Shown: in pieces, positions 1 to 16,448 of the stretch
Layout: every line of letters begins with the position of its first letter
Position numbering within the stretch: the first letter of the stretch is position 1
Origin: a virus
Lineage: Duplodnaviria; Heunggongvirae; Uroviricota; Caudoviricetes
Length of the DNA: 51,075 bases
IMG/VR virus record: IMGVR_UViG_2872698443_000004
Coordinates: 1-51,075 of that record
Strand: one strand, 5' to 3'
Made by a program: the position numbers and the translations under genes
The notes under the pieces: generated by a model
The model's database searches: none
Seen by the model: only the letters and a program-made list of their open reading frames with translations
Told to the model about the DNA's origin: nothing

Positions 1-192
1 TCAGGAGCATTTCTGATTAACACCACCGTTAAGAATCCACCCCTCAACAGCTTCACGAAGGTATGATTTGGGGTGGGTTCTGACTGGCTTCGGAAATCCG
101 TGCCGTTTGGTATAGTTCCAGATTGTCTGACGTGATGAAACACCGAGCTTGTTCATCACTTCTTTCTCAGGAATCAGGCTGGTATCGGTCAT
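1..192 (-). CDS. AlpA-family excisionase / DNA-binding regulator (Xis-like)
   Basis: Complete 63-aa ORF with stop at 1-3; small basic HTH-like protein at distal end of leftward early operon, where int-xis sit in lambdoid prophages; int presumably left of window. Confidence 0.55.
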   Translation of the reverse strand: MTDTSLIPEKEVMNKLGVSSRQTIWNYTKRHGFPKPVRTHPKSYLREAVEGWILNGGVNQKCS

Positions 193-205
193 CTTAATTC
201 TCCAG

Positions 206-231
206 GCAAAAATAAACCGCCATCAGGCGGC
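206..231 (-). terminator. Putative rho-independent terminator (minus strand)
   Basis: Hairpin CCGCC-ATCA-GGCGG followed on minus strand by U-tract (plus A-run 206-216). Confidence 0.35.
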
Positions 232-273
232 TTGGTGTTCTTTCAGTTCTTCAATTCGAATATTGGTTACGTC

Positions 274-585
274 TTATTCGATGCGCAATCCTGGTATTTC
301 GCCTTTTGATATTGCTAAGTCATAAATTTGCGCAGCACTATACCCATCTCGCATCCATGAATCTAAGGCGCGAACAGTCTCGCTACGCTTTTTATCTTCT
401 CTCTCATTTTTGATATCAACGAGGACATCAACGCAATTAAGGCAAATGTGGATTTTGTCCTTACATTCAATCATGGCGGCTTTACCATAATTTCCGCCAC
501 ACAGTGAGCATAAATCTTCAGGGTCTGGCTGGTATTTCTGTAACGTTAGAGGGTTGAATGTTGAACAGACCATAATCATCTCCAT
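274..585 (-). CDS. Hypothetical phage protein with two CxxC pairs (Zn-ribbon-like)
   Basis: 103-aa ORF; CSLCGG and CLNCV motifs; in leftward early operon. Confidence 0.5.
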   Translation of the reverse strand: MEMIMVCSTFNPLTLQKYQPDPEDLCSLCGGNYGKAAMIECKDKIHICLNCVDVLVDIKNEREDKKRSETVRALDSWMRDGYSAAQIYDLAISKGEIPGLRIE

Positions 586-666
586 AAAACAAAACTCGCC
601 GTAGCGAGTTAAGATAAAAGAAAACCTCGACGGTGCGAGGTTTGTTAGTTGCGCTCTGCTGCTGAT

Positions 667-948
667 TTAGCCATCAATATTTACCTTTATCGCGAACACC
701 TTTACCGGTTTATCACCGAAGTGCGGATGTGTGATTGTCTTGATTTCATATCCGTCATACGGGACGTCAATTCTACGACTGGAATCGTCACGCTTCGGAT
801 ATCCCTTTGTGATAATCAGTCGGTCATACTCGCGGAACATAATTCGCTTATTCCAGTAGTCATTACACAGGCGATACTCTTCCGTTTTCTCCCCGCGAAT
901 CATGGCATCGAAGTATTCACCTTTGACGGCAAGTTGCAGGTTAGCCAC
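667..948 (-). CDS. Hypothetical phage protein (possibly ASCH-like)
   Basis: 93-aa ORF, 8-nt overlap with upstream gene; family assignment from weak recalled resemblance only. Confidence 0.4.
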   Translation of the reverse strand: MANLQLAVKGEYFDAMIRGEKTEEYRLCNDYWNKRIMFREYDRLIITKGYPKRDDSSRRIDVPYDGYEIKTITHPHFGDKPVKVFAIKVNIDG

Positions 949-1225
949 GACCTTCCTCCTTTGGCTTGTGAATTTGTATCGTCATGCCGCTTTGAGTGGT
1001 GACTACAATGACAGAACCAGGCTGAAGGCTGTTAAGATTGAATGCTTCGTAAAACGAATCCAATGCCAGTGCTTTTTTATTCTTTCTGTTCCACCAACGC
1101 CATCCCTTGCTACAGGCTACACTGACAATCCACTGTCCACTCCTGTAAGCCATATAAAACCAGATGAGCAAAACCTGAAGGAAGGCAATCCAGTCAATAA
1201 TCGTATATTTCGCGAAGGAGTCCAT
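941..1225 (-). CDS. Hypothetical small membrane protein
   Basis: ATG at 1223-1225 overlaps TAA of upstream gene (TAATG coupling); hydrophobic segment IDWIAFLQVLLIWFYMAY; ORF-track start at 1300 is an upstream extension. Confidence 0.4.
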   Translation of the reverse strand: MDSFAKYTIIDWIAFLQVLLIWFYMAYRSGQWIVSVACSKGWRWWNRKNKKALALDSFYEAFNLNSLQPGSVIVVTTQSGMTIQIHKPKEEGRG

Positions 1226-1866
1226 TACTTCATCTCCTGCGGCGGTTCTGGTAGCGGCATCCAGTGTGACGGTTTCCACGACGCCCCAGGAATGATCCAC
1301 CCATCATTAGCGTCAGGATGCCCCGGGATGTAAGTCGCCCATTTCATTCGCCAGTCACCTTTCCTATCAAACTCCTTGGCAACAAGAACGGCTGTTTTGG
1401 TATCCGGCATTCGCTCACTACAGCTTATCCAACTATCCGGAGTTACCGGAGAGTTGCCAGATAGCTCGTTCAACTTGTAAGTTTGGCTTACAGGTTCGGC
1501 ACCATGAAGCATGGCAGCACGGCAGGCGTTCCAGCCAGCTGTTCGCCCAAGCGAGTAAACTTCAGATGGCTCAAGATAATCAATGTCATGCCCGTCCTCA
1601 TCGTCGTTCTCAGGTAATGCAGCAGGTACTACTGGTACTGGAGGGGCGGCATAAACAGGAATAACGTCCGATTGATCTTTATTGCTTTCATCCGTTAAAG
1701 CCCAGAATAATTTCCCGGCCGGATGTTTGAAAATATAAGCAACTGGCTCTGCTTCCAGTGATGCCAGTGCAATTCGTGCCAGTTCCATTTGTTCGCCACG
1801 GGTAAGCCCGTTTTCAAGCGGGGATTTAATGAACAATTCGATACGTTCTTTAGTGATAGTGCTCAT
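1225..1866 (-). CDS. Phage protein, DUF551-like C-terminal domain
   Basis: Start trimmed to ATG 1864-1866 preceded by AGGAGA; C-terminal W/P-rich segment resembles DUF551 (recalled). Confidence 0.5.
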   Translation of the reverse strand: MSTITKERIELFIKSPLENGLTRGEQMELARIALASLEAEPVAYIFKHPAGKLFWALTDESNKDQSDVIPVYAAPPVPVVPAALPENDDEDGHDIDYLEPSEVYSLGRTAGWNACRAAMLHGAEPVSQTYKLNELSGNSPVTPDSWISCSERMPDTKTAVLVAKEFDRKGDWRMKWATYIPGHPDANDGWIIPGASWKPSHWMPLPEPPQEMK

Positions 1867-1867
1867 A

Positions 1868-2407
1868 TCACTCTCCTTTGATGCGAATACCAGCAGTGCG
1901 CTCGGCTTCACTTTGTTCCCAAAACCACTTGTGAAGCTCCATAAGCTTTTCGTCAATCGGTGCATATTTGCGATTAAAGTAGGCCTGAGCATCTTTCTCA
2001 GATTCGTCCGGCAATTCGCCTGGGCCAAACAGTGTGTTATAAATCCATGCCAGTCCGCTTTTAGCGTCGCCAGTTGCCTGCCATTCGATAATCGCAGCCT
2101 GCATGACCAGAATGTTTTTCCCGATTAACAGGTCCAGTTCTTTGAACCGGTTGCGGATGTATGCATTCTCGCTTTGTAATTTTGCGTTGCGCTTCTCTGC
2201 GGCTTCCAGCTCATCCAGCAGTTCCAGCACGGTTTCTGGTCCGGCCAGAAATTTGAAGGCGTTGAGCGCATCAATATCCACACCGTAATCTTTAAGTTCC
2301 TGTTCGCTTATCAGATCATCATCAACTGGCAACATTAACAGGCGTTCCATTGCCGGAATTGCACGCTCTGCCGCTTCACGCAGTGCCTGATAGTCAATCT
2401 TGCTCAC
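1868..2407 (-). CDS. Hypothetical phage early protein
   Basis: GTG start at 2405-2407 with strong AAAGGAGG SD 6 nt upstream; ORF-track start 2428 is also GTG. Confidence 0.5.
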
Positions 2408-2604
2408 TGGTTGCCTCCTTTGCGCCACATCGCATTCAGATATCTGTTGTCGTTAACAGAACCGAAACTCTTTCTCTTAAGCAATTCCTCTCTCGATGGC
2501 ATTGGCTTTACGCGTTGGCGAATAATCATTTCTGCCGGAAGAATGCCGGGATTGTATGCAAGTCCTCTCATGGTAAATTCCTCAGTCATTACTGATAGCG
2601 CCAT
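2404..2604 (-). CDS. Hypothetical small protein
   Basis: Track ORF begins with TTG at 2724 and overlaps neighbour; first ATG at 2602-2604; weak SD. Confidence 0.3.
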
Positions 2605-2878
2605 AGCGTGAGCGGTAATTACGCAGGCGCGGGTCGATATATTCAGGGAAGTGGGTATATGTGGCTTTGCGGAATGGTCGGATTGATGTCTGGTAAATTC
2701 GCTCGCGTTCTTCTTTCTCTGCAAGCCATATACAGTGGCGAAATTCCTTTTCCTCTTTCGTTTCCTGCGGTAGCGACATTATCCGGTCGTAGTTTTTTCT
2801 GAATTTATCCAGCACCTCCGATACGGAATTGCCGGAACAGCGGCGCACGTCATCCGCACCATACAGAGGCGCTGGCAT
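2582..2878 (-). CDS. Hypothetical phage protein
   Basis: 98-aa ORF, ATG preceded by AGGAGAAA SD. Confidence 0.5.
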
Positions 2879-2891
2879 GATTTTCTCCTGA

Positions 2892-3407
2892 TTAAATTGC
2901 GTGAATAGCGTGACGAGGGAAGGGGAGAGTTACTGGTGCAAAGGGTATATCGTCGTCAAAATCCATAGGTGGTTCGCTATGATTCCCCTGCTGCTGAGGT
3001 TGCTGTCTTTGTTGCTGACCGTTATTTCGCTGAGGTGAAGACTGTTCATTGCCTCCTTGCTTGCCACCAAGCATTTGCATAGTTCCACCAACGCCCACGA
3101 TGACTTCAGTAGTGAACCGATCCTGTCCGCTTTGATCCTGCCATTTTCTTGTCCGCAATTTGCCTTCAAGATAAACCTCAGAGCCTTTTCGCAGATATTC
3201 GCTGGCAATTTCTGCCAGTTTCCCGCTCATTACCACGCGGTGCCACTCCGTCTGCTCCTTTTGCTCTCCAGTTTGCTTATCACGCCATTGTTCTGACGTA
3301 GCAACTGTAAGGTTTGCAAATGCCGTTCCTGATGGTGAATATCTGATTTCTGGATCATGCCCAAGGCGACCAATAATGATCACCTTATTTACGCCTCTAC
3401 TTCCCAT
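2892..3407 (-). CDS. ssb: Single-stranded DNA-binding protein with 15-aa C-terminal extension
   Basis: OB-fold N-terminus ([16 protein letters not shown]), Gly/Gln-rich linker, acidic [10 protein letters not shown] motif; ORF continues 15 codons past the usual terminal Phe. Confidence 0.85.
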
Positions 3408-4115
3408 TTATGCCGCCTGTTTTAGTTCGTTAACTCTGATGTTCATTACCTGAACGCATTTAGCCTGCGCCTCCTCGTTGCCAGCCATTAATTGCCAGTC
3501 ACGCTGATAACGCTCGATGAGTTTTTTCTTGTCAGTTTCTGTTGACGCATAATCGCTGAAGTCTTTCAGGATTTGTTCGCAGTCAACCGATGGAGATTTC
3601 TGGTTGGTATTTTCTGGTGATGGTTTGTTATCTGATGCTGGGATTGCCCAGCCCGGCAGCGATGGAGGGAGCCAGTAAAATCCTGTTCCATCCTTCAGTT
3701 TTGCCCTGTGCCACCCCTGCTTTTTATCGGGAGATGTTTGTGCGAAACCTTCCTCAAGGTTATACAGATACCGACCGATTCCCCACTGAACGGCAGCGCG
3801 CTTCATTGCACCGGAACGACCACCTTTGACGGCTTCTACCTGCGTGTTTTCAGCAGCATCCCATTTGGTTACCCATTCGGAATCAATCTTTATTGATATG
3901 CCGCATTCAACGCCGCCGTTGTTGGGAATATCGCGGTATTCATTGCGCCATCCTGCTTTGCCACAAACATCGTCAAGGCGTTTCATGATTGCCCGGTTCG
4001 TGACATAAGCCAGCACCATAGCCCACACTTTTCCATCGCGTGTTTTACCGCTTTGCTGTATTCGCCATTCGATATCTTCGGGGCTGAATGGCTCATCGAA
4101 TTTATTCAAATCCAT
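3408..4115 (-). CDS. Rad52-like single-strand annealing (recombination) protein
   Basis: 235 aa; GIGRYLY-type motif; directly upstream of ssb in leftward operon; GAGGTG SD. Confidence 0.6.
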   Translation of the reverse strand: MDLNKFDEPFSPEDIEWRIQQSGKTRDGKVWAMVLAYVTNRAIMKRLDDVCGKAGWRNEYRDIPNNGGVECGISIKIDSEWVTKWDAAENTQVEAVKGGRSGAMKRAAVQWGIGRYLYNLEEGFAQTSPDKKQGWHRAKLKDGTGFYWLPPSLPGWAIPASDNKPSPENTNQKSPSVDCEQILKDFSDYASTETDKKKLIERYQRDWQLMAGNEEAQAKCVQVMNIRVNELKQAA

Positions 4116-4123
4116 AATTCACC

Positions 4124-4294
4124 TCAGAATGGACATGGCCCAAGGAAATAACGCTGATTTAATACTTCAGTCTTTGCCGCATTTAAAAATACGCGAACAC
4201 CTTCACGATCTCCCTTCTGGCGATACATTAACGCCTGCTGCGTGTACATGCGTCTCTGTAACTTGCTCTCCTTCACTGTGGTTGCAAGTGACAT
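4124..4294 (-). CDS. Small hypothetical protein (56 aa)
   Basis: ATG preceded by strong AAGGAGATATTC SD; overlaps 4203..4373 in another frame, so only one may be real. Confidence 0.3.
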   Translation of the reverse strand: MSLATTVKESKLQRRMYTQQALMYRQKGDREGVRVFLNAAKTEVLNQRYFLGPCPF

Positions 4295-4373
4295 GAATAT
4301 CTCCTTCGTTACCGATTAATTCTTTCATCTGACGAATGAATTCTTCGTCTGACCAGTTATCTGTAAAACTCAT
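4203..4373 (-). CDS. Small acidic hypothetical protein (56 aa)
   Basis: ATG overlaps kil stop (ATGA coupling); acidic N-terminus MSFTDNWSDEEF. Confidence 0.3.
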   Translation of the reverse strand: MSFTDNWSDEEFIRQMKELIGNEGDIHVTCNHSEGEQVTETHVHAAGVNVSPEGRS

Positions 4374-4522
4374 TTCCTGCGATACCACGGAAGGTTGATA
4401 GCTGATTTCATCGCTTTATTTGCTTCAATCCACATTTTTGAATCACCAATAAATCTGGCTATTACTGCTTTGTTCTGTGCTGCACGAAGCATCTGGTGAT
4501 TGATGGCTATTTCATTGCGCAT
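4370..4522 (-). CDS. kil: Kil-like host division inhibitor (50 aa)
   Basis: MRNEIAINHQ...IARFIGDSKMW resembles recalled lambda Kil core; GAGG SD; start overlaps end of cIII as in lambda. Confidence 0.5.
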   Translation of the reverse strand: MRNEIAINHQMLRAAQNKAVIARFIGDSKMWIEANKAMKSAINLPWYRRK

Positions 4523-4638
4523 AATAAGACCTCAACTCTTTTCCATCCGTCACGTAATTTACGGGTGATTCGTTCAAGTAAAGATTCATTTAGTTGGAAG
4601 GCACCCATGCGAGCGCCTCCCGCGATTGCGTAAATCAT
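4507..4638 (-). CDS. cIII: CIII-like protease inhibitor (43 aa)
   Basis: MIYAIAGG...ESLLERITRKLRDGWKR matches lambda CIII core; AAGGA SD. Confidence 0.65.
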   Translation of the reverse strand: MIYAIAGGARMGAFQLNESLLERITRKLRDGWKRVEVLLCAMK

Positions 4639-4662
4639 GGGTGGTTCCTTATGTTGGTTTTA

Positions 4663-5631
4663 TTAGTAGGTTATTTTTGTTGCGAATACTTCGCCTTTTA
4701 CGATGGCTGTTATGATATTTTTAGCAACATCTTCTGATGCGCCAACCTTGATAAGGTCAGCAAGTATTTTGTTATTTACTTCTTTCCGGTGAGCTTTATC
4801 CTTTGCTCTACGCTCTTCTTCGTCCTTGATTCTTTTTTCTTCTGCTATTCTGGCTTGCTCTTTTGCTTCAGCTTCGCGCCGGATTCGTTCAGCCTCCTCC
4901 TGTGCTTTTCGGCGTTCTGCTTCAATTGCCGCCTGCTTTTCTCTTTCAGCTCGTTCTGCTGCCTCTTTTGCTTCGCGCTGTGCTCGTTGCTCGGCTTCAA
5001 TGCGTTCACGCTCTGCACGTTCCGCTGCGGCCTTAGCTTCTGCTTCTCGCCTTGCTGCTGCTTCAATTTCGGCTTTTGCCTTTGCTTCGGCTTCAGCTCT
5101 GGCTTTCTCTTCAGCTTCTCTTTTTAAGCGTTCTTCATGCTCTCGCTTTTCCTGCTCCGCTTTGAGTCTTGCCTCTTCTCTTTGGCGGTCAAATTCGCGA
5201 TCCATCAAAATCGCTATTTCATGGTCAGACTCAATTTGCTTTGCGAGAGCTTCAGCTGCTGCCTTAGCTTCTTCTTCGGCTTTAATTCGCGCCTGTTCTT
5301 CCTCATAATCAGTAAGAGGCTGGCGCGCCTTGGCTTTCAGTTCATCAAGGCGATCACGCACTGTCTTGCGGTTGGCATCAATTAGCTTTGGAATTTCCTT
5401 CAGTTCAGCAACAAGGTCTTTGCCAAGACCATCGAGATATGTTTTCGTCTGCGCAACTTTATACGCCAGAGAAGCGATCTCCTTTCTGCCCTTTGCCGTT
5501 GTGATATCAGGCACAAAGGACATAACTTCACGTTCAACCTTTTGGAGAATTTCTTCAATCTGGTCAGCAGACTGAAATACAATCATTGCATTTGCTTTTT
5601 CAATAACAACTAAATCTGTTACTTCACTCAT
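4663..5631 (-). CDS. Hypothetical coiled-coil protein with long E/A/K/R-rich repeat region
   Basis: 322 aa; GGAGGA SD; central ~150 aa of AEAKAKAE/REAEEK-type repeats; first gene after tL1-like terminator. Confidence 0.6.
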   Translation of the reverse strand: MSEVTDLVVIEKANAMIVFQSADQIEEILQKVEREVMSFVPDITTAKGRKEIASLAYKVAQTKTYLDGLGKDLVAELKEIPKLIDANRKTVRDRLDELKAKARQPLTDYEEEQARIKAEEEAKAAAEALAKQIESDHEIAILMDREFDRQREEARLKAEQEKREHEERLKREAEEKARAEAEAKAKAEIEAAARREAEAKAAAERAERERIEAEQRAQREAKEAAERAEREKQAAIEAERRKAQEEAERIRREAEAKEQARIAEEKRIKDEEERRAKDKAHRKEVNNKILADLIKVGASEDVAKNIITAIVKGEVFATKITY

Positions 5632-5643
5632 ATATCCTCCATC

Positions 5644-5669
5644 AAAAAAATGCCCTCACACTGGAGGGC
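5644..5669 (-). terminator. Rho-independent terminator (tL1-like)
   Basis: Hairpin GCCCTC-ACACTG-GAGGGC with 7-nt U-tract on minus strand. Confidence 0.5.
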
Positions 5670-5762
5670 AAAGAAGATTTCCAATAATCAGAACAAGTCG
5701 GCTCCTGTTTAGTTACGAGCGACATTGCTCACATAGCAGACTCGTAAATCTGCTATAGGCGC

Positions 5763-5921
5763 TTATTCGCATCGCATGACAACATCAAATTTTTCGAGAT
5801 TACTTTGTCGCAACAATCCTTCTTCTACTCGGTCAGCTTTTCTATAATTATCAAATTCGAAGTGTTTAATTACTTCTTTTGTTTCTCGCTCTATAACTTC
5901 AACGATGTATCTCTTATTCAT
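5763..5921 (-). CDS. Small hypothetical protein (52 aa)
   Basis: ATG overlaps TAA of upstream gene (TAATG); not in ORF track (<60 aa). Confidence 0.35.
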   Translation of the reverse strand: MNKRYIVEVIERETKEVIKHFEFDNYRKADRVEEGLLRQSNLEKFDVVMRCE

Positions 5922-6190
5922 TACTCATCACCTAGGGCTTTTTTGATAGCTTCGCGAGCCTTATTAACAGCTCCATACCATTCTGGATATGTTGTCGTTG
6001 TTCTATTTTCGGCTTGCTTAAGTAATAACTGAAGTGCTTCAAGTAAATCCGGTGCAGCCATAGCCAACCTTCCATTTGCTACGGCCTCTTCTGTTTCTTT
6101 ACCGGATAGGGCCATTCCAGGGTGTGAAAATAAAATTAAGCCTGCAAAATTGGCTTCTCGCCAATTTTTCCTAGTACCTTTAAATTCCAT
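5921..6190 (-). CDS. Hypothetical protein
   Basis: 89 aa, AGAGG SD. Confidence 0.45.
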   Translation of the reverse strand: MEFKGTRKNWREANFAGLILFSHPGMALSGKETEEAVANGRLAMAAPDLLEALQLLLKQAENRTTTTYPEWYGAVNKAREAIKKALGDE

Positions 6191-6227
6191 GTTAGCCTCT
6201 GTTGTTTATGCCAAAAATAAAGGCCGA

Positions 6228-6412
6228 CTATGCGGCCTCGGAAGGAAGTCCAATCATCTTATTCAAATCTTCTACCCGTAAAGCAGGAAGTGCTGTACTT
6301 GCTTTATCTGCTTCTTTTGGTAGCAATTCTTTGCTTTCAGGCCAAACTTCAATAAGTCGCTTAACTGTTGTGACTGAGTTCAAAGCAGCCCATACATTTG
6401 ATTCGATATCCT
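6228..6412 (-). pseudogene. C-terminal part of early-left gene split by IS1
   Basis: Reading frame of the 7181..7628 fragment continues across the IS1 target duplication into this segment, ending at TAG 6228-6230. Confidence 0.5.
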
Positions 6413-6427
6413 GGTAATGACTCCAAC

Positions 6428-6931
6428 TTATTGATAGTGTTTTATGTTCAGATAATGCCCGATGACTTTGTCATGCAGCTCCACCGATTTTGAGAACGAC
6501 AGCGACTTCCGTCCCAGCCGTGCCAGGTGCTGCCTCAGATTCAGGTTATGCCGCTCAATTCGCTGCGTATATCGCTTGCTGATTACGTGCAGCTTTCCCT
6601 TCAGGCGGGATTCATACAGCGGCCAGCCATCCGTCATCCATATCACCACGTCAAAGGGTGACAGCAGGCTCATAAGACGCCCCAGCGTCGCCATAGTGCG
6701 TTCACCGAATACGTGCGCAACAACCGTCTTCCGGAGCCTGTCATACGCGTAAAACAGCCAGCGCTGGCGCGATTTAGCCCCGACATAGCCCCACTGTTCG
6801 TCCATTTCCGCGCAGACGATGACGTCACTGCCCGGCTGTATGCGCGAGGTTACCGACTGCGGCCTGAGTTTTTTAAGTGACGTAAAATCGTGTTGAGGCC
6901 AACGCCCATAATGCGGGCAGTTGCCCGGCAT
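6428..6931 (-). CDS. insB: IS1 transposase InsB
   Basis: 167-aa ORF inside IS1. Confidence 0.9.
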
Positions 6932-7125
6932 CCAACGCCATTCATGGCCATATCAATGATTTTCTGGTGCGTACCGGGTTGAGAAGCGGTGTAAGTGAAC
7001 TGCAGTTGCCATGTTTTACGGCAGTGAGAGCAGAGATAGCGCTGATGTCCGGCGGTGCTTTTGCCGTTACGCACCACCCCGTCAGTAGCTGAACAGGAGG
7101 GACAGCTGATAGAAACAGAAGCCAC
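6850..7125 (-). CDS. insA: IS1 protein InsA
   Basis: 91-aa ORF with CPSC...CSHC zinc motif inside IS1. Confidence 0.9.
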
Positions 7126-7180
7126 TGGAGCACCTCAAAAACACCATCATACACTAAATCAGTAAGTTGGCAGCATTACC

Positions 7181-7628
7181 CGATATCCTTTTTCTTGGCT
7201 TCAAGTTTTTGTTGCAATGCGCAGATTTCATCAAACCTTTTTGTTATTTCGTGTTCTGCGCTAAACATGCATTTATCTTCGTTCGGAGCAGGGAGCAATA
7301 TATCTTCGCCGTTGCCGTCTTTCCCATATGAAAGCCATCCAACCCTTCTGCCAGATACAGTCAGATAAATTGAAGTAGAACGAACATCGTATGAGTAAAA
7401 TGAACATCCCATCTTTTCAAGTTCTTCACTTATAGCTACCAACTTGGATGATAACTGATCCACTTCCTCAGTTTTCTTTTTACCGCCAAACGCAATAACT
7501 CTGGCGTCAAGTGCAAGCTGGTTCTTTAACTTTGTTACTTCTTCAAGTTCAGTGAAAACCCCAGACTTAATTAAAGCGTTACGAGCGATTTCCTCTTTCA
7601 TTCTCGTAGTTAAGCGGATTGATGACAT
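7181..7628 (-). pseudogene. N-terminal part of early-left gene interrupted by IS1
   Basis: Likely start ATG 7626-7628 with GAGG SD; frame runs into IS1 where a stop at 7176-7178 truncates it. Confidence 0.5.
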
Positions 7629-7693
7629 ATTAATTCCTCTCAAATAAGTGCTTTGCTGCCAAAACAATGAACCATCCGGAAATTCCAGATAGT

Positions 7694-7921
7694 TCATAAT
7701 TCACTCTTCAATACTTCCAACTTACTAATCGCCGATAGATATCCGCGCTGATAGGGCATCATCATTCCTTCGAGCTTGCCACTTCTTAACTCCTCCCTGA
7801 GCAATTGTATTGCTTGATCAATAACCTCTGCCTTAGCGTCCTTTATGGCTTGCTTGCGGGGCTTTGCTTTCTGCTTTGGCAGATTTCTCAAGCATGATGG
7901 AATGTATGTCTGATTCATCAC
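7694..7921 (-). CDS. Hypothetical protein downstream of N
   Basis: 75-aa ORF, GTG immediately after N stop, ATG one codon later. Confidence 0.4.
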   Translation of the reverse strand: MMNQTYIPSCLRNLPKQKAKPRKQAIKDAKAEVIDQAIQLLREELRSGKLEGMMMPYQRGYLSAISKLEVLKSEL

Positions 7922-8194
7922 TTACCTCGCCGTCAGTTGTTTTGATTTCCGGTATCCTGCCGCGTAAATGGCTACGTTTGGCAGGCAAATACTTCCACTG
8001 CATTCTTCTGCCTTCTTGCAGCGAAGGCTTCCGAGCGATGCTGCTTTGTCTGCTCTGACGCAACCAGAGAGCTTTAGCGCAATTTTTCGCGCCAGTGCTT
8101 CATTACTGCGTCGCTCGGCAATAAGTTCTGCTCTGCGAGCTTTGTAGCGGCTTTTTGCCGTACCTTTGGATTCTTTCCAGACAATGGTTACCAT
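7922..8194 (-). CDS. N: N-like transcription antitermination protein
   Basis: Arginine-rich N-terminus (GTAKSRYKARRAELIAERR); first gene downstream of pL and nutL; AAGGAG SD. Confidence 0.7.
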   Translation of the reverse strand: MVTIVWKESKGTAKSRYKARRAELIAERRSNEALARKIALKLSGCVRADKAASLGSLRCKKAEECSGSICLPNVAIYAAGYRKSKQLTAR

Positions 8195-8304
8195 GATGGT
8201 CTCCTTTAAGTGGCTTTGGCGCATGACGCGTCGAGGTGCTTATCTTCTCGATCGCTGTCTTGCAGCTGCAATTCGCGCCATCCCCAAAACCACTCAAGTT
8301 CTGG

Positions 8305-8345
8305 TCTCAACGGTTAGGTTGAGAGTCCGTCGATGTTAAAGAGCA
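8305..8345 (-). promoter_or_regulatory. nutL (boxB hairpin 8305-8324, boxA 8334-8344)
   Basis: Minus-strand GCTCTTTAACA then hairpin UCUCAAC-CUAACC-GUUGAGA between pL and N; boxA identical to nutR. Confidence 0.6.
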
Positions 8346-8391
8346 TGCCAATCTGTTCCGTTTGGCTTCCAGCGTCCTGCTGATGGCTTAA

Positions 8392-8419
8392 ATTTAAGAC
8401 TTCTTAATTTATTGGTCAA
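8392..8419 (-). promoter_or_regulatory. pL promoter with OL operator
   Basis: Minus-strand -35 TTGACC (8414-8419), 16-nt spacer, -10 TTAAAT (8392-8397); palindrome TTAAGACTTCTTAA at 8394-8407. Confidence 0.5.
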
Positions 8420-8483
8420 GTGTATTTTTGAAGAAAACTTAATTTTATGGGCGTGAATTTAGTTTGTCTTTGATTTTTAACGG

Positions 8484-8508
8484 GAAATAAAAAAGGGGCG
8501 AAAGCCCC
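8484..8508 (-). terminator. Rho-independent terminator after cI
   Basis: GGGGC-GAAA-GCCCC hairpin right after cI stop, U-tract on minus strand. Confidence 0.6.
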
Positions 8509-9159
8509 TTAAGGAAGGTTTGCTAGCTTGGCATCAACGACAACGCCAATGATTTTACAGTTCCCATTGATTTCAATCATTGGGTATTGTGGATTGAGTG
8601 GTTTCAGGAATTTTCTCCCGGCATCAATAACTAACTTTTTGAATGTCGCCTCGTTTTCTCCTTCAAGTTTGGCGACTACCAGCTTTCCATTACGTGGTTC
8701 GACTTCTGGGTCGACGAGAATAATCATCCCCTCAGGAATACTCAGTCCTGCCGGGGCAGTCATTGAGTCGCCTTTAACGTCGAGCCAAAAAGAGTCTTCA
8801 GAACAATCTACCGTTGTGTCGTACCAGTTATCTATTGCACGCCTATGATATGGCTCTACAGCTTCCATCCAACATCCTGCGCTTACCCAACTAATTAGAG
8901 GATACGAACCTCTTGGATCATGCCTGCTGTGATAGGCAATGTTTGAAAGACTATCCTCTCCTTTCAACAGGTAATCAGGGGAGCACTGCAAAGCCTTGGC
9001 TAAGGCCAATAGGTTTTCGCCATTGGGCTCAGTTTCAGATCGCTCCCATTGGGAAATAGCAACATTAGACACGCCAACCATCTTGCCAAGGGCAGCCTGC
9101 CTAATCTTGAGTTCTTTTCTGCGAGCGCGAATACGCTCACCCATCAGTTGTGTATTCAT
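8509..9159 (-). CDS. cI: CI repressor (HTH + S24 LexA-like autopeptidase)
   Basis: N-terminal XRE-type HTH; Ala-Gly cleavage site (VSAGCW); GDSM and VVAKL catalytic motifs; divergent from cro. Confidence 0.85.
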   Translation of the reverse strand: MNTQLMGERIRARRKELKIRQAALGKMVGVSNVAISQWERSETEPNGENLLALAKALQCSPDYLLKGEDSLSNIAYHSRHDPRGSYPLISWVSAGCWMEAVEPYHRRAIDNWYDTTVDCSEDSFWLDVKGDSMTAPAGLSIPEGMIILVDPEVEPRNGKLVVAKLEGENEATFKKLVIDAGRKFLKPLNPQYPMIEINGNCKIIGVVVDAKLANLP

Positions 9160-9239
9160 AGTTAAGACATCTTAAATAAACTTGACTTAAGATTCCTTTG
9201 GTGGATAATTTAAGTGTTCTTTAATTTCGGAGCGAGTCT
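9160..9239. promoter_or_regulatory. OR operators with divergent PR/PRM
   Basis: PR -35 TTGACT (9182-9187), 16-nt spacer, -10 GATAAT (9204-9209); palindrome TTAAGACATCTTAA (9162-9175) and related site around 9209-9224. Confidence 0.6.
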
Positions 9240-9425
9240 ATGTACAAAAAAGATGTTATTGACCACTTCGGAACCCAGCGTGCTGTTGCTAAAGCACTAG
9301 GCATTAGCGATGCAGCAGTCTCTCAGTGGAAAGAAGTTATCCCAGAGAAAGACGCCTATCGATTGGAAATCGTTACAGCTGGCGCCCTGAAGTATCAAGA
9401 AAGTGCTTACCGCCAAGCGGCATAA
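9240..9425 (+). CDS. cro: Cro repressor
   Basis: 61 aa, HTH QRAVAKALGISDAAVSQW; divergent from cI. Confidence 0.8.
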   Translation: MYKKDVIDHFGTQRAVAKALGISDAAVSQWKEVIPEKDAYRLEIVTAGALKYQESAYRQAA

Positions 9426-9432
9426 GCAAATT

Positions 9433-9473
9433 GCTCTTTAACAGTTCTGGCCTTTCACCTCTAACCGGGTGAG
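9433..9473 (+). promoter_or_regulatory. nutR (boxA 9433-9443, boxB hairpin 9454-9473)
   Basis: GCTCTTTAACA followed by hairpin UCACC-UCUAACC-GGUGA just after cro. Confidence 0.6.
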
Positions 9474-9540
9474 CAAACATCAGCGGCAAATCCATTGGGT
9501 GTGCCGCTATAACTCAATATCAATATAGGAAAATTAACAA

Positions 9541-9837
9541 ATGGCACAAGCAAGCTACAGCAAGCCAACACAGCGAGAAATTGATCGCGCTGAAACTGAT
9601 TTACTCATCAACCTGTCAACGCTTACCCAGCGCGGTCTGGCAAAGATGATTGGCTGTCATGAATCGAAGATAAGCAGAACGGACTGGAGATTTATTGCTT
9701 CGGTCTTGTGTGCTTTCGGAATGGCATCAGACATCAGTCCGATTAGCAGGGCTTTTAAGTATGCGCTTGATGAAATCACAAAGAAAAAATCCCCGGCCGC
9801 CACCGAGGATTTTAAGCAAATTGATATGCAATTCTGA
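9541..9837 (+). CDS. cII: CII-like transcriptional activator
   Basis: 98 aa; C-terminus KKKSPAATEDFKQIDMQF parallels lambda CII; HTH in middle. Confidence 0.75.
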   Translation: MAQASYSKPTQREIDRAETDLLINLSTLTQRGLAKMIGCHESKISRTDWRFIASVLCAFGMASDISPISRAFKYALDEITKKKSPAATEDFKQIDMQF

Positions 9838-9869
9838 GGGAATTACTGGATCAATCCACAGGAGTAATT

Positions 9870-10031
9870 ATGACAAAACGTCGTAAGAAATACCAGGAAA
9901 AAGAAGAGATTCGACACCCTGATTCACCTGAGGGATTAGTGGTAGCCGCAGCAAATAACAGGGCGTTCGCAGAGCGCCTTGTTGGTGTTTACAGACTAGC
10001 CAAAGCAGGAGTGAAACATGGGCGTCGTTAA
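9870..10031 (+). CDS. Small basic hypothetical protein (53 aa)
   Basis: AGGAG SD; stop overlaps start region of O; below ORF-track size cutoff. Confidence 0.4.
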   Translation: MTKRRKKYQEKEEIRHPDSPEGLVVAAANNRAFAERLVGVYRLAKAGVKHGRR

Positions 10032-10839
10032 GTTAGCTGATTACAGGCCTCAACTGGAGGTCGTGGAGCATCGCGTGGCAGATACCGAAGATGGTTTCAT
10101 GCGCGTTGCTAACGAGATTACCGACAGTCTGCTGATGGCTGATTTAACCGTCCGGCAGTTGAAGGTGATGCTCGCTATCATGCGCAAGACATACGGATTC
10201 AATAAGCCGATGGATCGACTCACAAACACGCAGATAGCAGCCATGACAGGTATTCATCACACTCATGTTTGCGCTGCCAAGCGCCAGCTTATTGAGCGTA
10301 AATTCCTCATTGCTGATGGCGTGAAAATCGGAGTGAACAAGGTGGTTTCTCAGTGGATTAGCCAGGACAGCTTAACATTAGCCAAAACAGCTAATAAAAC
10401 ATTAGCCAAGTCAGCTAATGGGTATAAGCCAAGTCAGCTAAACACAAAAGACAATATACAAAAGACAATAAATACAAATACCCCCTTACCCCCTAACGGG
10501 GGCGGCGATGGGCAGGTTAAACCTGAACGTCGCAAGGCAGAACGCATCGACTACGAATCCTTCCTGAACGCCTACAACACCGAAGTCGGTGACAGGCTGC
10601 CACACGCTGTTGCGGTCAACGAGAAACGCAAACGTCGCCTGAAGAAAATCATCCCGCAACTGAAAACGCCAAACGTGGACGGTTTCAGAGCGTATGTCAG
10701 GGCGTTTGTACATCAGGCCAAGCCGTTTTACTTCGGAGACAACGACACGGGCTGGACGGCCGATTTTGATTACCTGCTGAGGGAAGACTCGTTAACGGGA
10801 GTTCGGGAAGGGAAGTTTGCAGACAGGGGGATTGCATGA
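10018..10839 (+). CDS. O: Replication initiation protein O-like
   Basis: 273 aa; position after cII; iteron array inside its coding sequence; followed by helicase. Confidence 0.7.
10355..10485 (+). repeat. Origin iterons plus A-rich tract within O
   Basis: Four tandem ~18-20 bp repeats (TTAGCCAGGACAGCTTAA / TTAGCCAAAACAGCTAA / TTAGCCAAGTCAGCTAA / TAAGCCAAGTCAGCTAA) then A-rich 10441-10485. Confidence 0.6.
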
Positions 10840-12212
10840 GACAGGATATCGAAGCGAGCGTTATCGGTGGCCTGCTGATTGGTGGATTAACACCAACCGC
10901 CAGCGACGTTCTGGCAACGCTGGAGCCGGAGGCGTTTTCAATTCCGCTCTACAGAAAAGCCTTCGAGGTTATCCGGAAGCAGGCGCGAAACAGAAACCTC
11001 ATTGACGCGCTGATGGTTGCCGAGGAGTGCGGAGAGGAGCATTTCACGTCAATCCTGATGACCAGCAAAAACTGCCCGAGTGCCGCAAACCTGAAGGGAT
11101 ATGCCGGAATGGTCGCGGATAACTATCACCGCCGTCTGGTGCTGGAAATCATGGATGAAATGCGTGAACCAATTCAGAGCGGAACCATCGACGCATCGAG
11201 TCAGGCGATGGATGAGCTTGTAAAGCGTCTCTCAGCCATCAGAAAGCCCCGTGACGAGGTTAAACCTGTACGGTTAGGGGAAATCATCACTGACTACACC
11301 GACACGCTTGACAGGCGTCTGAGGAACGGAGAAGAGTCAGATACCCTGAAGACCGGAATCGAAGAACTTGACGCCATCACCGGAGGGATGAACGCAGAAG
11401 ACCTTGTGATAATCGCTGCTCGTCCTGGTATGGGGAAAACCGAACTGGCGCTGAAGATTTCCGAAGGCGTTGCAAGCCGCGTTATTCCTGGTTCTGACGT
11501 CCGGCGCGGGGTATTGATTTTCTCAATGGAAATGAGCGCATTGCAGATTGCAGAGCGAAGCATTGCCAACGCCGGGAGGATGTCGGTTAGTGTGCTGCGA
11601 AATCCTGCAGCGATGGATGACGAAGGCTGGGCACGTGTTGCTAACGGCATGAGTCAGCTTGCAGATTTGGATGTATGGGTTGTCGATGCCTCGCGGTTAT
11701 CGGTCGAAGAAATACGCTCAATCGCAGAACGGCACAAACAGGAAAACCCAAACCTGTCACTCATCATGGCGGATTATCTTGGCCTGATTGAGAAGCCGAA
11801 AGCAGACCGCAACGACCTTGCAATTGCTCACATCTCCGGAAGCCTGAAGGCGATGGCGAAGGACCTGAAAACGCCTGTTATCTCCCTGAGTCAGCTTTCG
11901 CGCGATGTTGAGAAGCGACCAAACAAACGCCCGACAAACGCAGATTTGCGTGATTCAGGAAGCATTGAACAGGACGCAGACTCAATCATCATGCTCTATC
12001 GGGAAGCGGTATATGACGAGAACAGTAGCGCCGCGCCATTTGCTGAAATCATCGTGACGAAAAACCGTTTTGGCTCGCTTGGTACGGTTTACCAGCGGTT
12101 CTGTAACGGACACTTTGTTGCATGTAACCAGGATGAAGCCAGACAGATTTGCACAGCATCAAATGCACCTGCTGCGCGTGGCAGACGATATGCACAAGGG
12201 GCGGACGTATGA
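10836..12212 (+). CDS. Replicative DNA helicase (DnaB family)
   Basis: 458 aa; Walker A (ARPGMGKTE), DnaB-type motifs; start overlaps O stop. Confidence 0.85.
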
Positions 12213-12238
12213 CCATCTACATCACTGAGCTAATAACA

Positions 12239-12266
12239 GGCCTGCTGGTAATCGCAGGCCTTTTTA
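12239..12266 (+). terminator. Rho-independent terminator after helicase (tR2-like)
   Basis: GGCCTGC-TGGTAATC-GCAGGCC hairpin followed by TTTTT. Confidence 0.55.
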
Positions 12267-12607
12267 TTTGGGGGAGAGGGAATTGTGGCTGACTGGTAAA
12301 TTCCAATCATCATTCTTGCCGGAGCTTCGCTGGTTTCTGGCTTTATCCTGCTGAAAAAGCATAAAGACCGTGATCAAAAAGTCGAAGTTCTCTATGGGTA
12401 TCCAGCGAACAGCACAACATGGCTGACCATTTACCACTACCGAAAATCAGGACGCTGGGTATTCGAATGGGATGATCTGTTCGCTGAAAAGCGACCAAAG
12501 TCATGGGGAGACATCAGCGAATGCATGATGTTTGAAGAAAGAAAATCCGGCGCAACCCGAGAAGAGTTTAACGAAGCGTGGGCGCGATTAAGTGAGAGAG
12601 GGTATTT

Positions 12608-12808
12608 GTGAGCAAGTACGAAAAATTAGATCAAAACATTCTTTCAATGCTGAGTGAAAGACCAACACCTGTTTTTGATATCTGGCTTAAATGGCGGAGC
12701 AATGGAATGTATATCGAAACCATCGATCGCCGTATGCAATACCTGAGAAAGAAAGGGCTTGTTGCAAATGTGCGTGGGAAGGGTTGGGTGAAAATTAACC
12801 TGTCATAA
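12608..12808 (+). CDS. Hypothetical small protein
   Basis: 66 aa, GTG start. Confidence 0.4.
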   Translation: MSKYEKLDQNILSMLSERPTPVFDIWLKWRSNGMYIETIDRRMQYLRKKGLVANVRGKGWVKINLS

Positions 12809-12819
12809 CGGGGATTGAT

Positions 12820-13092
12820 ATGGACGAATCAAGAAAGCAGTTTTTGGAGTTCGCGAAAAAGCAAAATTTAAGCCTTGCATATGGTGATTGCGGGTATGTT
12901 TATTCATCCACGGAAATGGCATGGAGGGCATGGCAGGCATCTCGCGCAGCTATCGAGATTGAGTGTCCTGGAAAAAGAGAGCGTGAGGCATTTTCTACCG
13001 ATTTCGAGGATGGGGTCACATTTGGTTATAACGACGCAATTAGTGAATGCGAAGGACGGATTCGCGCTGCTGGAGTCAAAGTGAAGGAGTAA
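12820..13092 (+). CDS. Hypothetical nin-region protein
   Basis: 90 aa ORF. Confidence 0.45.
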   Translation: MDESRKQFLEFAKKQNLSLAYGDCGYVYSSTEMAWRAWQASRAAIEIECPGKREREAFSTDFEDGVTFGYNDAISECEGRIRAAGVKVKE

Positions 13093-13094
13093 CG

Positions 13095-13541
13095 ATGAAG
13101 CAAATATACATGCTTCGCAACGAAGAAATCAGAAACAACGCCATAGACGCAATACTCTCACTTCCCATCGACGACAAGTCACCTCACGAAGTCCACGTTA
13201 GAGAACCCAAACGCAGCAAAGCGCAGAATGACCGTATGTGGCCGATGCTGAACGATGTTTCGCGTCAGGTGCTATGGCATGGTCAACGGCTGGCACCGGA
13301 AGACTGGAAAGACCTGTTCACTGCCCTGTGGCTTAAGACCAAAAAACTGGAGCAACGAAGTGTGCCTGGTATCGACGGTGGCGTTGTCATGCTTGGCGTG
13401 CGTACCAGCAAAATGCGAAAGGCCAGCATGACTGAGCTTATCGAAATCATGTTCTGGTTCGGCTCAGAGCGCAACGTGCGGTGGAGTGATGACTCCCGGC
13501 GAGAGTATGAATGGTCACAACGAAAAGGTAGGGCTGCATGA
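13095..13541 (+). CDS. ninB: NinB recombination protein
   Basis: Start trimmed to ATG 13095 with AAGGAG SD; DQN...DVSRQV.WHG...KWSD motifs as recalled for lambda NinB. Confidence 0.8.
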   Translation: MKQIYMLRNEEIRNNAIDAILSLPIDDKSPHEVHVREPKRSKAQNDRMWPMLNDVSRQVLWHGQRLAPEDWKDLFTALWLKTKKLEQRSVPGIDGGVVMLGVRTSKMRKASMTELIEIMFWFGSERNVRWSDDSRREYEWSQRKGRAA

Positions 13542-14065
13542 CTATCAAATCAAATACGCCAGCACACGACAAGGACTGCTGGCAAACGCCGCTTTGGCTT
13601 TTTGATGCACTGGATATTGAGTTTGGATTCTGGCTGGATTCGGCAGCGAGCGACAAAAATGCTCTGTGCGCTCACTGGTTAACTGAGGCCGACGACGCGC
13701 TCAATTCTGAGTGGGTAAGCCACGGTGCAATATGGAATAACCCACCGTACAGCAATATCAGGCCGTGGGTGGAAAAAGCCGCTGAGCAGTGCATACAACA
13801 GCGACAGACGGTAGTTATGCTTGTGCCAGAGGATATGTCAGTCGGATGGTTCAGCAAGGCTCTGGAGAGTGTCGACGAAGTTCGCATTATCACTGATGGA
13901 CGGATTAATTTTATCGAACCATCGACAGGGCTGGAGAAGAAGGGAAACAGCAAAGGCTCCATGCTGCTGATTTGGCGACCGTTCATCAGTCCTCGACGGA
14001 TGTTTACTACCGTATCCAAAGCGGCATTGATGGCGATCGGGCAGGGCGTCAGGAGGGCGGCATGA
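13538..14065 (+). CDS. Phage DNA N6-adenine methyltransferase
   Basis: NPPY catalytic motif ([10 protein letters not shown]); 175 aa; nin region. Confidence 0.8.
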
Positions 14066-16445: not shown

Positions 16446-16448
16446 AAC

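What the first reader, a model, noticed from the sequence alone, without database searches (positions are those of the whole stretch)
6404..7189. IS1 insertion with 9-bp target duplication splits a gene of the leftward early operon
A complete 768-bp IS1 is flanked by the direct repeat CGATATCCT. The interrupted reading frame is continuous across the duplication (7181..7628 joins 6228..6412 into a ~210-aa protein). Transcripts from pL must cross IS1 to reach kil, the recombination genes, ssb and xis, so the insertion may be polar and render the prophage defective for excision or recombination.
Basis: seen in the sequence. Interest (0 to 1): 0.5.

Follow-up and report, generated by a model that had tools for sequence, protein, structure and literature searches.

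The report
IS1 insertion splitting prophage gene Nmad5
A common bacterial jumping gene (IS1) has recently landed in a non-essential accessory gene of a lambda-like prophage in E. coli; this is a real but ordinary event, and it probably does not cripple the prophage, because the phage's anti-termination system sits upstream of the insertion.

Summary
A complete 768-bp IS1 lies at 6413..7180. It differs from K-12 IS1A at 3 positions and has intact insA, insB' and the A6C frameshift site. It is flanked by the 9-bp direct repeat CGATATCCT (6404..6412 and 7181..7189).

Removing IS1 and one repeat copy restores a 207-aa ORF that matches Pfam Nmad5 (PF18757) end to end (E 2e-71). E. coli S163-2 carries the same prophage early region with the empty site. 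It matches the window exactly from 3996 to 16950 apart from IS1 plus one repeat copy. The insertion removes residues 150-207, which hold 16 of the family's 18 invariant alignment columns, so Nmad5 is almost certainly inactivated.

The polarity claim is weak. pL with its operators, nutL (boxA plus boxB) and an N gene of the type I recall for phage 21 all lie upstream of IS1. The leftward operon also carries several intrinsic terminator-like hairpins downstream of IS1, so it must depend on N antitermination anyway. The infectious phage SfIV carries a full IS1 between Q and its lysis genes.

No other public genome searched has this junction, so the insertion looks recent and private. Interest is low.

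The parts
6404..6412 (.). Left copy of the 9-bp target-site duplication CGATATCCT
   Evidence: The single copy in the empty site of E. coli S163-2 is at L001 9505..9513.
6413..7180 (-). Complete IS1 (768 bp, IS1A-like), with its transposase genes pointing the same way as pL transcription
   Evidence: 99.6% identical to K-12 IS1A. 100% identical to the IS1 at 16016..16783 of S163-2. GC 53% against about 40% in the flanks.
7158..7180 (-). IS1 left inverted repeat (IRL, GGTAATGCTGCCAACTTACTGAT); position 4 is A where K-12 IS1A has G
   Evidence: A promoter-like site at 7173..7146 lies at the position where I recall the insA promoter to be.
6413..6435 (+). IS1 right inverted repeat (IRR, GGTAATGACTCCAACTTATTGAT)
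   Evidence: 19 of 23 positions match IRL.
6850..7125 (-). insA (91 aa, GTG start), identical to K-12 InsA
   Evidence: (PF03811, PF12759).
6868..6874 (-). A6C programmed -1 frameshift motif (AAAAAAC, IS1 positions 307-313); shifting here gives a 232-aa InsAB' transposase
6428..6931 (-). insB' frame (167 aa; DDE_Tnp_IS1), 2 amino-acid differences from K-12 InsB
   Evidence: (PF03400, E 2e-78).
7181..7189 (.). Right copy of the 9-bp target-site duplication CGATATCCT
7176..7628 (-). 5' part of the Nmad5 gene: codons 1-149, then Gly and a TAA stop supplied by the first bases of IS1 (150-aa truncated product)
   Evidence: PGAP calls the same start codon in S163-2.
6228..6412 (-). 3' part of the Nmad5 gene (codons 147-207 plus stop, including the repeated 9 bp), now detached from its start
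   Evidence: It holds 16 of the 18 invariant columns of the family alignment.
6220..6239 (-). Intrinsic terminator-like hairpin (GAGGCCGCATAGTCGGCCTT followed by a T-run) overlapping the Nmad5 stop codon
7694..7921 (-). 75-aa ORF of unknown function between N and Nmad5 (phrog_5305)
7922..8194 (-). N antiterminator gene (90 aa from MVTIVWKESKGTAKSRYKARRAELIAERR...; the longest ORF extends to 8224), intact and upstream of IS1
   Evidence: Pfam N_peptide PF25694, E 4e-17. PGAP start in S163-2. Sequence.
8305..8344 (-). nutL: boxA GCTCTTTAACA (8344..8334) and boxB hairpin TCTCAAC-CTAACC-GTTGAGA (8324..8305)
   Evidence: The matching nutR lies at 9433..9475 on the + strand.
8391..8419 (-). pL-like promoter (TTGACC, 17 nt, TAAATT) overlapped by the operator-like palindrome TTAAGACTTCTTAA (8394..8407)
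8509..9159 (-). cI-type repressor (LexA/S24 family, 216 aa)
   Evidence: Annotated as a LexA family protein in the identical S163-2 region.
5921..6190 (-). First gene downstream of IS1 (89 aa, phrog_1273, unknown function)
4370..5631 (-). Downstream early-left genes: TolA-like 322-aa protein (5631..4663), cIII (4638..4507), kil (4522..4370)
2582..4115 (-). Downstream recombination module: Rad52/Rad22-type recombinase (4115..3408), ssb (3407..2892), anti-RecBCD Abc2 (2878..2582)
1..192 (-). Excisionase-like HTH gene (63 aa), the last gene of the leftward arm within the window, preceded by a terminator-like hairpin at 233..214
   Evidence: phrog_66, E 2e-8.
50683..51075 (-). Second IS1 copy (cut by the window end), in the same orientation and 100% identical over the 393 nt visible; a candidate donor and a partner for recombination

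Best explanation
A simple, recent transposition of an intact IS1A-type element into the accessory early-left gene Nmad5 of a lambdoid prophage integrated next to dacD in E. coli.

Shown:
- IS1 inserted by its normal mechanism and duplicated 9 bp of target.
- The insertion truncates Nmad5 after codon 149 and removes the most conserved third of the protein. The direct effect is therefore loss of Nmad5, a non-essential phage protein of unknown biochemical function.

Inferred:
- In the lysogen pL is repressed, so the insertion is silent.
- On induction, RNA polymerase leaving pL is modified at nutL by N. Both nutL and N are intact and about 1 kb upstream of IS1. The modified polymerase reads through IS1, as it must read through the natural terminators further down.
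- kil, cIII, the Rad52-type recombinase, ssb, abc2 and xis are therefore still expressed, possibly at a somewhat lower level, and the prophage is not made defective by this insertion alone.

Side effects:
- The phage genome grows by 777 bp.
- If the phage is viable it now carries IS1 as cargo.
- Two identical direct IS1 copies 44 kb apart make the segment between them prone to deletion.
For: Anatomy of IS1 and the target duplication.

IS1 protein domains.

The reconstructed ORF covers the Nmad5 profile at positions 1-206 of 206 and phrog_1965 at 2-208 of 208.

Empty site: the reconstructed 1274 nt are 100% identical to S163-2. The two flank alignments overlap by exactly the 9-bp target. All 12 differences lie at 3543..3995, so 3996..16950 is identical apart from IS1 plus one repeat copy.

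Full-length orthologues: 152 phage records.

Conservation: 16 of 18 invariant columns fall at residues 153 and beyond. Distant phage homologues align only to residues about 103-207.

Dispensability: deleting nmad5 gave a viable Dhillonvirus phage (PMC11846954). Frameshifted variants are common in the protein database.

Antitermination system upstream of IS1:
- N peptide domain.
- The exact boxA 11-mer occurs only at the two expected places, each followed by a hairpin with a CUAACC loop.
- Operator palindromes cluster on both sides of cI.

Terminators: hairpins at 6239..6220, 5670..5651, 643..622, 610..593 and 233..214 lie on the transcribed strand, and none lies inside IS1 on that strand.

Precedent: SfIV, an induced and plaque-forming phage, carries a 99.5% identical full IS1 between Q and its holin gene. 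P1 also carries an IS1.

Background: the lambda N complex is part of established antitermination biology (review PMC12360218). N-dependent readthrough from a lambda prophage reaches the gal operon (PMC2147009).
Against: - No expression data exist. IS1 is strongly polar in ordinary operons (my own knowledge), and N antitermination is not 100% efficient, so partial polarity on distal genes such as xis, about 7 kb further on, is possible.
- The position of pR' relative to IS1 in SfIV was not established, so that precedent is suggestive rather than exact.
- int and the left attachment site are outside the window, so the integrity of the whole prophage could not be checked.
- The extra 777 bp could matter if packaging is tight.
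- My identification of N as 'phage 21 type' rests on my recollection of the published peptide and boxB sequences.
Confidence: 0.72

Rival explanations
1. IS1 is strongly polar. pL transcripts stop inside IS1 by Rho-dependent termination in the largely untranslated insB' region. As a result kil, the recombination genes, ssb and xis are under-expressed, and the prophage is locked in or defective for excision and recombination.
For: All these genes lie downstream on the same strand, and no convincing independent promoter was found: only one weak 9-of-12 match at 4367..4340, with promoter-like sites overall below the chance expectation. After the premature stop, only the 91-codon insA is normally translated within IS1. 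IS1 polarity in the gal and lac operons is classical knowledge (my own).
Against: nutL and an intact N gene lie upstream. The operon already contains at least five terminator-like hairpins downstream of IS1 that must be overridden. No intrinsic terminator-like site lies on this strand inside IS1. The insB' part of the transcript is G-rich rather than C-rich (C/G 0.6-0.9), which is not typical of a strong Rho loading site, although this is weak evidence. SfIV and P1 tolerate an IS1. In the sister prophage int is on the other strand.
Confidence: 0.2
2. The knock-out was selected rather than neutral. Loss of Nmad5 benefits the lysogen or the phage, for example by removing a toxic product or a protein that a host defence system senses.
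For: In Dhillonvirus phages, nmad5 point mutants escape the Tmn defence system, and attempts to clone nmad5 failed, apparently because it is toxic (PMC11846954). Frameshifted Nmad5 variants recur in databases.
Against: In that study, deleting nmad5 did not give escape from Tmn. Intact Nmad5 is present in hundreds of E. coli prophages. This insertion is seen in a single genome only. pL genes are repressed in a lysogen, so toxicity would not be felt. One event gives no signal of selection.
Confidence: 0.06
3. Assembly artefact: a repeat-induced misjoin placed an IS1 copy inside the prophage.
For: IS1 is multicopy. An identical copy lies 43.5 kb away in the same window, and no other public genome has this junction.
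Against: A misjoin would not create a perfect 9-bp duplication of the target with both halves of one reading frame in register, nor leave flanks that match an empty site exactly.
Confidence: 0.02

Closest known systems
IS1A of E. coli K-12 (IS1 family insertion sequence)
   Same: 768 bp and 99.6% nucleotide identity. The inverted-repeat architecture is the same. InsA is identical, insB' is in the -1 frame with the A6C slippery site, and the target duplication is 9 bp.
   Different: Three substitutions: IRL position 4 is A rather than G, and there are two InsB' residue changes (S5C and S65R relative to K-12). The insertion site was not found in any other genome searched.
IS1 carried by infectious phages: Shigella phage SfIV (between Q and the lysis cassette) and phage P1
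   Same: A full-length IS1 (99.5% and 98.8% identical) resides inside a functional temperate phage genome. In SfIV it lies just downstream of an antiterminator gene.
   Different: Those copies lie in the late (Q) region or in a plasmid prophage, not in the N-dependent pL operon, and no interrupted gene is described for them. Whether the phage studied here is viable is untested.
Classical IS insertions in N-antiterminated transcription units (polar IS mutations in gal read from lambda pL; IS insertions in the lambda pR operon)
   Same: The logic is the same. A polar IS element lies downstream of a nut site and is transcribed by N-modified polymerase, which overrides the polarity (Adhya, Gottesman and de Crombrugghe 1974, cited; content from my own knowledge).
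   Different: Those cases were tested genetically in lambda. Here the system appears to be the phage 21 type and the readthrough is inferred.
Intact Nmad5 genes just downstream of N in lambdoid phages (HK244, HK542, mEp235, Stx1a and Stx2a phages, E. coli S163-2 prophage)
   Same: The gene, its position and its orientation are the same, with 93-100% protein identity.
   Different: They are uninterrupted. The copy here is split after codon 149.

Membership tests
IS1 family insertion sequence (IS1A type) | Length of about 768 bp with imperfect terminal inverted repeats of about 23 bp beginning GGT(A/G)ATG | tested here: met
   6413..7180 is 768 bp, and 19 of 23 inverted-repeat positions match.
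IS1 family insertion sequence (IS1A type) | insA followed by insB' in the -1 frame, with an A6C slippery site that yields the InsAB' transposase | tested here: met
   A6C at IS1 position 307. The simulated -1 shift gives a 232-aa fusion protein.
IS1 family insertion sequence (IS1A type) | InsA zinc-ribbon and HTH domains plus the IS1-type DDE domain | tested here: met
   PF03811, PF12759 and PF03400 (E 2e-78), and NCBIfam NF033558.
IS1 family insertion sequence (IS1A type) | Target-site duplication of 9 bp (occasionally 8-10) flanking the element | tested here: met
   CGATATCCT on both sides, and a single copy in the empty site of S163-2.
IS1 family insertion sequence (IS1A type) | Transposition activity | not testable with these tools
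   All coding and end features are intact, and the element is identical to another genomic copy. Activity itself needs an experiment.
Nmad5 (Pfam PF18757, nucleotide modification associated domain 5) | Sequence match to the family profile above the gathering score and over its full length | tested here: met
   The reconstructed 207-aa protein scores 240.6 bits (cut-off 27) over profile positions 1-206 of 206. As it stands, the gene encodes only residues 1-149.
Nmad5 (Pfam PF18757, nucleotide modification associated domain 5) | A role in DNA or nucleotide modification (the basis of the family's name) | not testable with these tools
Lambda-type N/nut processive antitermination (apparently phage 21 type) | N protein with an arginine-rich N-terminal motif, encoded as the first gene of the pL operon | tested here: met
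   PF25694 N_peptide, E 4e-17. The sequence contains GTAKSRYKARRAELIAERR. It is the first ORF downstream of the pL-like promoter.
Lambda-type N/nut processive antitermination (apparently phage 21 type) | nutL and nutR sites (boxA followed by a boxB hairpin), downstream of pL and downstream of cro | tested here: met
   The exact boxA 11-mer occurs only at 8344..8334 (-) and 9433..9443 (+). Each is followed by a stem-loop with a CUAACC loop. The fold z-score of nutL alone is unremarkable (-1.06).
Lambda-type N/nut processive antitermination (apparently phage 21 type) | Demonstrated readthrough of terminators, including IS1 | not testable with these tools
   This needs transcript measurements after induction.
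IS1-flanked composite transposon (Tn9-like), considered because of the two direct IS1 copies | One target duplication flanking the whole IS1-cargo-IS1 unit, rather than each IS1 separately | tested here: not met
   The left IS1 has its own 9-bp duplication on both of its sides. The right IS1 is also present in S163-2, which lacks the left copy. These are therefore two independent insertions. The far side of the right copy lies outside the window.

The most novel reading that the evidence does not exclude
The insertion is not neutral. One version: the Nmad5 knock-out was selected because Nmad5 is toxic or is sensed by a host defence system, in the way that Tmn escape maps to nmad5 in Dhillonvirus phages. 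Another version: the IS1 makes expression of the distal early-left genes (kil, recombination genes, xis) more strictly dependent on N, which would alter induction dynamics. In addition, the pair of identical direct IS1 copies turns 44 kb (most of the prophage plus dacD, sbmC, yeeA and a CP4-44-like island) into a unit that can be deleted or mobilised.
Probability: 0.05. Interest if true: 0.35.

Novelty: already known. Interest (0 to 1): 0.12.

Why it matters
This matters mainly for annotation. The two ORF fragments at 7628..7176 and 6412..6228 should be called one Nmad5 pseudogene interrupted by IS1, not two hypothetical genes. The prophage should not be scored as defective on the strength of this insertion alone.

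It is one more example of an IS element riding inside a temperate phage genome, which is a possible route for IS1 to spread. It also shows how paired IS copies can set up prophage decay by deletion.

The empty-site and occupied-site pair (S163-2 and this strain) would make a clean natural system for measuring how well a non-lambda N system suppresses IS1 polarity. That question is classical, not open.

Tried and rejected
- Searches for the same insertion elsewhere all found nothing. No complete E. coli genome out of 5,426 covers at least 80% of 5700..7900. Exact 30-mer junction scans of the GTDB representative genomes (both junctions) and of JGI metagenomes gave no match. Exact look-ups of the truncated 150-aa and 173-aa products gave nothing on record.
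- I computed the C/G ratio along the pL-direction transcript to look for a Rho loading region in IS1. The only C-rich stretch lies in the translated insA region and insB' is G-rich. This is inconclusive and I give it little weight.
- Literature support for N overriding IS polarity: full-text searches found no open-access primary paper. Adhya et al. 1974 (PMC388494) is cited but is not held, so that point rests on my own knowledge.
- A composite-transposon reading was rejected because each IS1 is an independent insertion.
- The idea that the 12 differences from S163-2 relate to IS1 was rejected. They all lie at 3543..3995, near a mosaic boundary in the recombinase gene.
- vB_EcoM-606R2, the best phage-database match for the late region, is a different phage in its early region, so it could not serve as a whole-genome reference.

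Full report
**1. The observation**

The stated feature is present exactly as described. Window 6404..6412 and 7181..7189 both read CGATATCCT, and the repeat stops there: the next base to the left is T in one copy and C in the other.

The 768 bp between the repeats (6413..7180) carry imperfect terminal inverted repeats, with 19 of 23 positions matching. They are 99.6% identical, with 3 substitutions and no gaps, to IS1A of E. coli K-12.

On the minus strand the element encodes:
- insA (7125..6850), whose product is identical to K-12 InsA.
- insB' (6931..6428), with 2 residue changes relative to K-12.
- the A6C slippery motif at IS1 position 307. A -1 shift there gives the 232-aa InsAB' fusion.

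Pfam and NCBIfam recognise the InsA domains and the IS1 DDE domain. IS1 has 53% G+C against about 40% in the flanks. By sequence the element is complete and potentially active.

**2. The interrupted gene**

Deleting IS1 and one repeat copy joins 7628..7190 to 6412..6228 on the minus strand. The result is one 207-codon frame.

This protein matches Pfam Nmad5 (PF18757) over the whole profile, positions 1-206 of 206, at 240.6 bits and E 2e-71. It also matches phrog_1965 over its whole length.

As it stands, the gene yields 149 native residues, then Gly and a TAA stop that come from the first bases of IS1.

The lost part, residues 150-207, is the best-conserved part of the family:
- In an alignment of 48 homologues with 33-95% identity, 16 of the 18 invariant columns lie at residues 153 and beyond.
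- Distant phage homologues (Pseudomonas, Bordetella, Dhillonvirus-type coliphages) align only to residues about 103-207.

The truncation should therefore inactivate the protein.

**3. The empty site**

The reconstructed 1274 nt are 100% identical to the chromosome of E. coli S163-2, where PGAP annotates an intact "Nmad5 family putative nucleotide modification protein" with the same start codon.

Alignments of the two window flanks to S163-2 overlap by exactly the 9-bp target, and that genome region holds one copy of CGATATCCT.

All 12 differences between the window and S163-2 in this arm lie at 3543..3995. From 3996 to 16950 the two are identical except for IS1 plus one repeat copy. The host flank 41122..51075 is 99.9% identical as well.

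Full-length orthologues are found in 152 phage records (HK244, HK542, mEp235, many Stx phages) and in hundreds of E. coli prophages.

**4. Operon context, read leftward on the minus strand**

- The cI-type repressor gene lies at 9159..8509.
- Operator-like palindromes TTAAG-N4-CTTAA cluster on both sides of cI, accounting for 4 of the 5 matches in the window.
- A pL-like promoter lies at 8419..8391 and overlaps one of these palindromes.
- nutL lies at 8344..8305. The boxA 11-mer GCTCTTTAACA occurs exactly twice in 51 kb: here and downstream of cro at 9433..9443. Each copy is followed by a hairpin with a CUAACC loop.
- The N gene lies at 8194..7922 (Pfam N_peptide, E 4e-17). Its arginine-rich motif GTAKSRYKARRAELIAERR and the boxB sequences are those I recall for phage 21, which is my own knowledge.
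- A 75-aa ORF follows, then Nmad5::IS1, then a terminator-like hairpin overlapping the Nmad5 stop (6239..6220).
- Next come an 89-aa ORF, another terminator-like hairpin (5670..5651), a TolA-like 322-aa protein, cIII and kil.
- Then come a Rad52-type recombinase, ssb, abc2 and several small ORFs.
- Three more terminator-like hairpins follow (643..622, 610..593, 233..214), and last an excisionase-like gene at 192..1.

In the S163-2 prophage int lies just beyond the window's left end, on the opposite strand.

IS1's own genes point the same way as pL.

**5. Is the insertion polar?**

This cannot be settled by computation, but the evidence leans against a strong effect.

- The complete N/nut system is upstream of IS1 and untouched.
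- The leftward arm contains five intrinsic terminator-like hairpins downstream of IS1. Expression of the distal genes must therefore already rely on terminator-resistant, N-modified polymerase.
- No intrinsic terminator-like site lies on the transcribed strand inside IS1.
- IS polarity is Rho-dependent. The lambda N complex protects against Rho (review), and release of IS-type polarity by N is a classical result (Adhya et al. 1974, listed; content from my own knowledge).
- N-dependent readthrough from a lambda prophage is known to reach the neighbouring gal operon.
- There is a natural precedent. Shigella phage SfIV was obtained by induction, forms plaques and lysogenises. It carries a 99.5% identical full IS1 between its Q gene and its lysis cassette. 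Phage P1 also carries an IS1.

A C/G scan for a Rho loading region was inconclusive. I estimate about 70% that the insertion costs the phage only Nmad5, perhaps with mild attenuation of distal genes, and about 20% that polarity is strong enough to impair excision or recombination.

**6. What is lost**

The function of Nmad5 is unknown. The name comes from genomic association with DNA-modification genes.

In Dhillonvirus phages, an nmad5 point mutation gave escape from the Tmn defence system. Deleting the gene gave a viable phage that did not escape, and attempts to clone it failed, apparently because it is toxic (PMC11846954).

Frameshifted Nmad5 variants are common in the protein database, which fits a dispensable accessory gene.

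**7. Age and origin of the insertion**

None of the 5,426 complete E. coli genomes carries this junction. Neither do the GTDB representative genomes or the JGI metagenomes. The truncated product is not on record.

The flanks are identical to an empty-site relative, the duplication is perfect, and IS1 is 100% identical both to a second copy 43.5 kb to the right (50683 to the window end, same orientation) and to that copy's orthologue in S163-2. This points to a recent event private to this strain. The neighbouring copy is a plausible donor, although any identical copy elsewhere in the genome would do.

**8. Comparison with known systems, and novelty**

The element passes every sequence-level test for IS1 (see the membership table). 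The target passes the Nmad5 profile test. The N/nut features pass the sequence-level tests for lambda-type antitermination.

A Tn9-like composite transposon was considered and rejected, because each IS1 is an independent insertion.

Nothing here departs from textbook IS1 biology. Only the insertion site is new, so I rate the finding as already known and of low interest. Its practical value is for annotation (one IS-interrupted pseudogene, not two ORFs) and as a caution against calling the prophage defective on this basis.

**9. Limits**

- int, attL and anything left of position 1 are unseen.
- Viability of the prophage, the efficiency of readthrough and the activity of IS1 all need experiments.
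- The identification of N as phage 21 type, and the classical IS-polarity literature, rest partly on my own knowledge.

Noticed in passing
window 50683..51075 (with 6413..7180): A second IS1 copy, cut by the window end, lies in the same orientation and is 100% identical over the 393 nt visible. E. coli S163-2 and other strains share it. The two direct copies lie 44.27 kb apart and bracket the immunity region, the replication and late genes of the prophage, dacD-sbmC-yeeA and a CP4-44-like island. This makes the segment a ready substrate for deletion by IS1 x IS1 recombination.
   Followed up: partly
window 9431..9475 (+) and 8305..8344 (-): There is a clear nutR/nutL pair. The exact boxA GCTCTTTAACA occurs only at these two places in 51 kb. 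Each copy is followed by a boxB hairpin with a CUAACC loop (nutR TTCACC-TCTAACC-GGGTGAG). From memory these match the phage 21 N system.
   Followed up: partly
window 17800..41100 compared with S163-2 (L003/L004): This prophage and the one in S163-2 share the integration site next to dacD and an identical early region. Their late modules are completely different: a myovirus-type module here (baseplate J, tape measure; closest to vB_EcoM-606R2 and SEN34) and a P22-like podovirus module in S163-2. This is a textbook case of lambdoid mosaicism.
   Followed up: partly
window 1..3405 compared with S163-2 L001: The distal left arm is mosaic relative to S163-2. The ssb/abc2 region is only 84% identical, and the HNH endonuclease gene that lies between the recombinase and ssb in S163-2 is absent here. 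All 12 substitutions in the otherwise identical segment cluster at 3543..3995, inside the Rad52-type recombinase gene, which marks a recombination boundary.
   Followed up: partly
reconstructed Nmad5 (window 7628..7190 + 6412..6228, minus strand); model m2fe485da48f1: The Nmad5 family gives a confident AlphaFold model (pLDDT 86) made of long helices plus a small beta unit. It has no significant relative among solved structures and no enzyme-like fold, so the 'nucleotide modification' label is unsupported for these lambdoid copies. The conserved core is the C-terminal segment, roughly residues 150-205.
   Followed up: partly
window 16537..16692 (+): Two phage-borne tRNA genes, Asn(GTT) and Thr(TGT), lie between the Q-type antiterminator gene and the lysis genes.
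   Followed up: no
window 4663..5631 (-): A 322-aa early-left protein has a long, highly charged, Ala/Glu/Lys/Arg-rich repetitive central region. PGAP names it 'cell envelope biogenesis protein TolA', probably a low-complexity artefact. It belongs to phrog_1376, of unknown function.
   Followed up: no
L006 (Shigella phage SfIV, NC_022749.1 35186..35953): SfIV carries a full IS1 between Q and its lysis cassette. The original paper annotated only 'IS1 transposase B' and interpreted the region as a moron. The position of pR' relative to this IS1 was not examined.
   Followed up: partly
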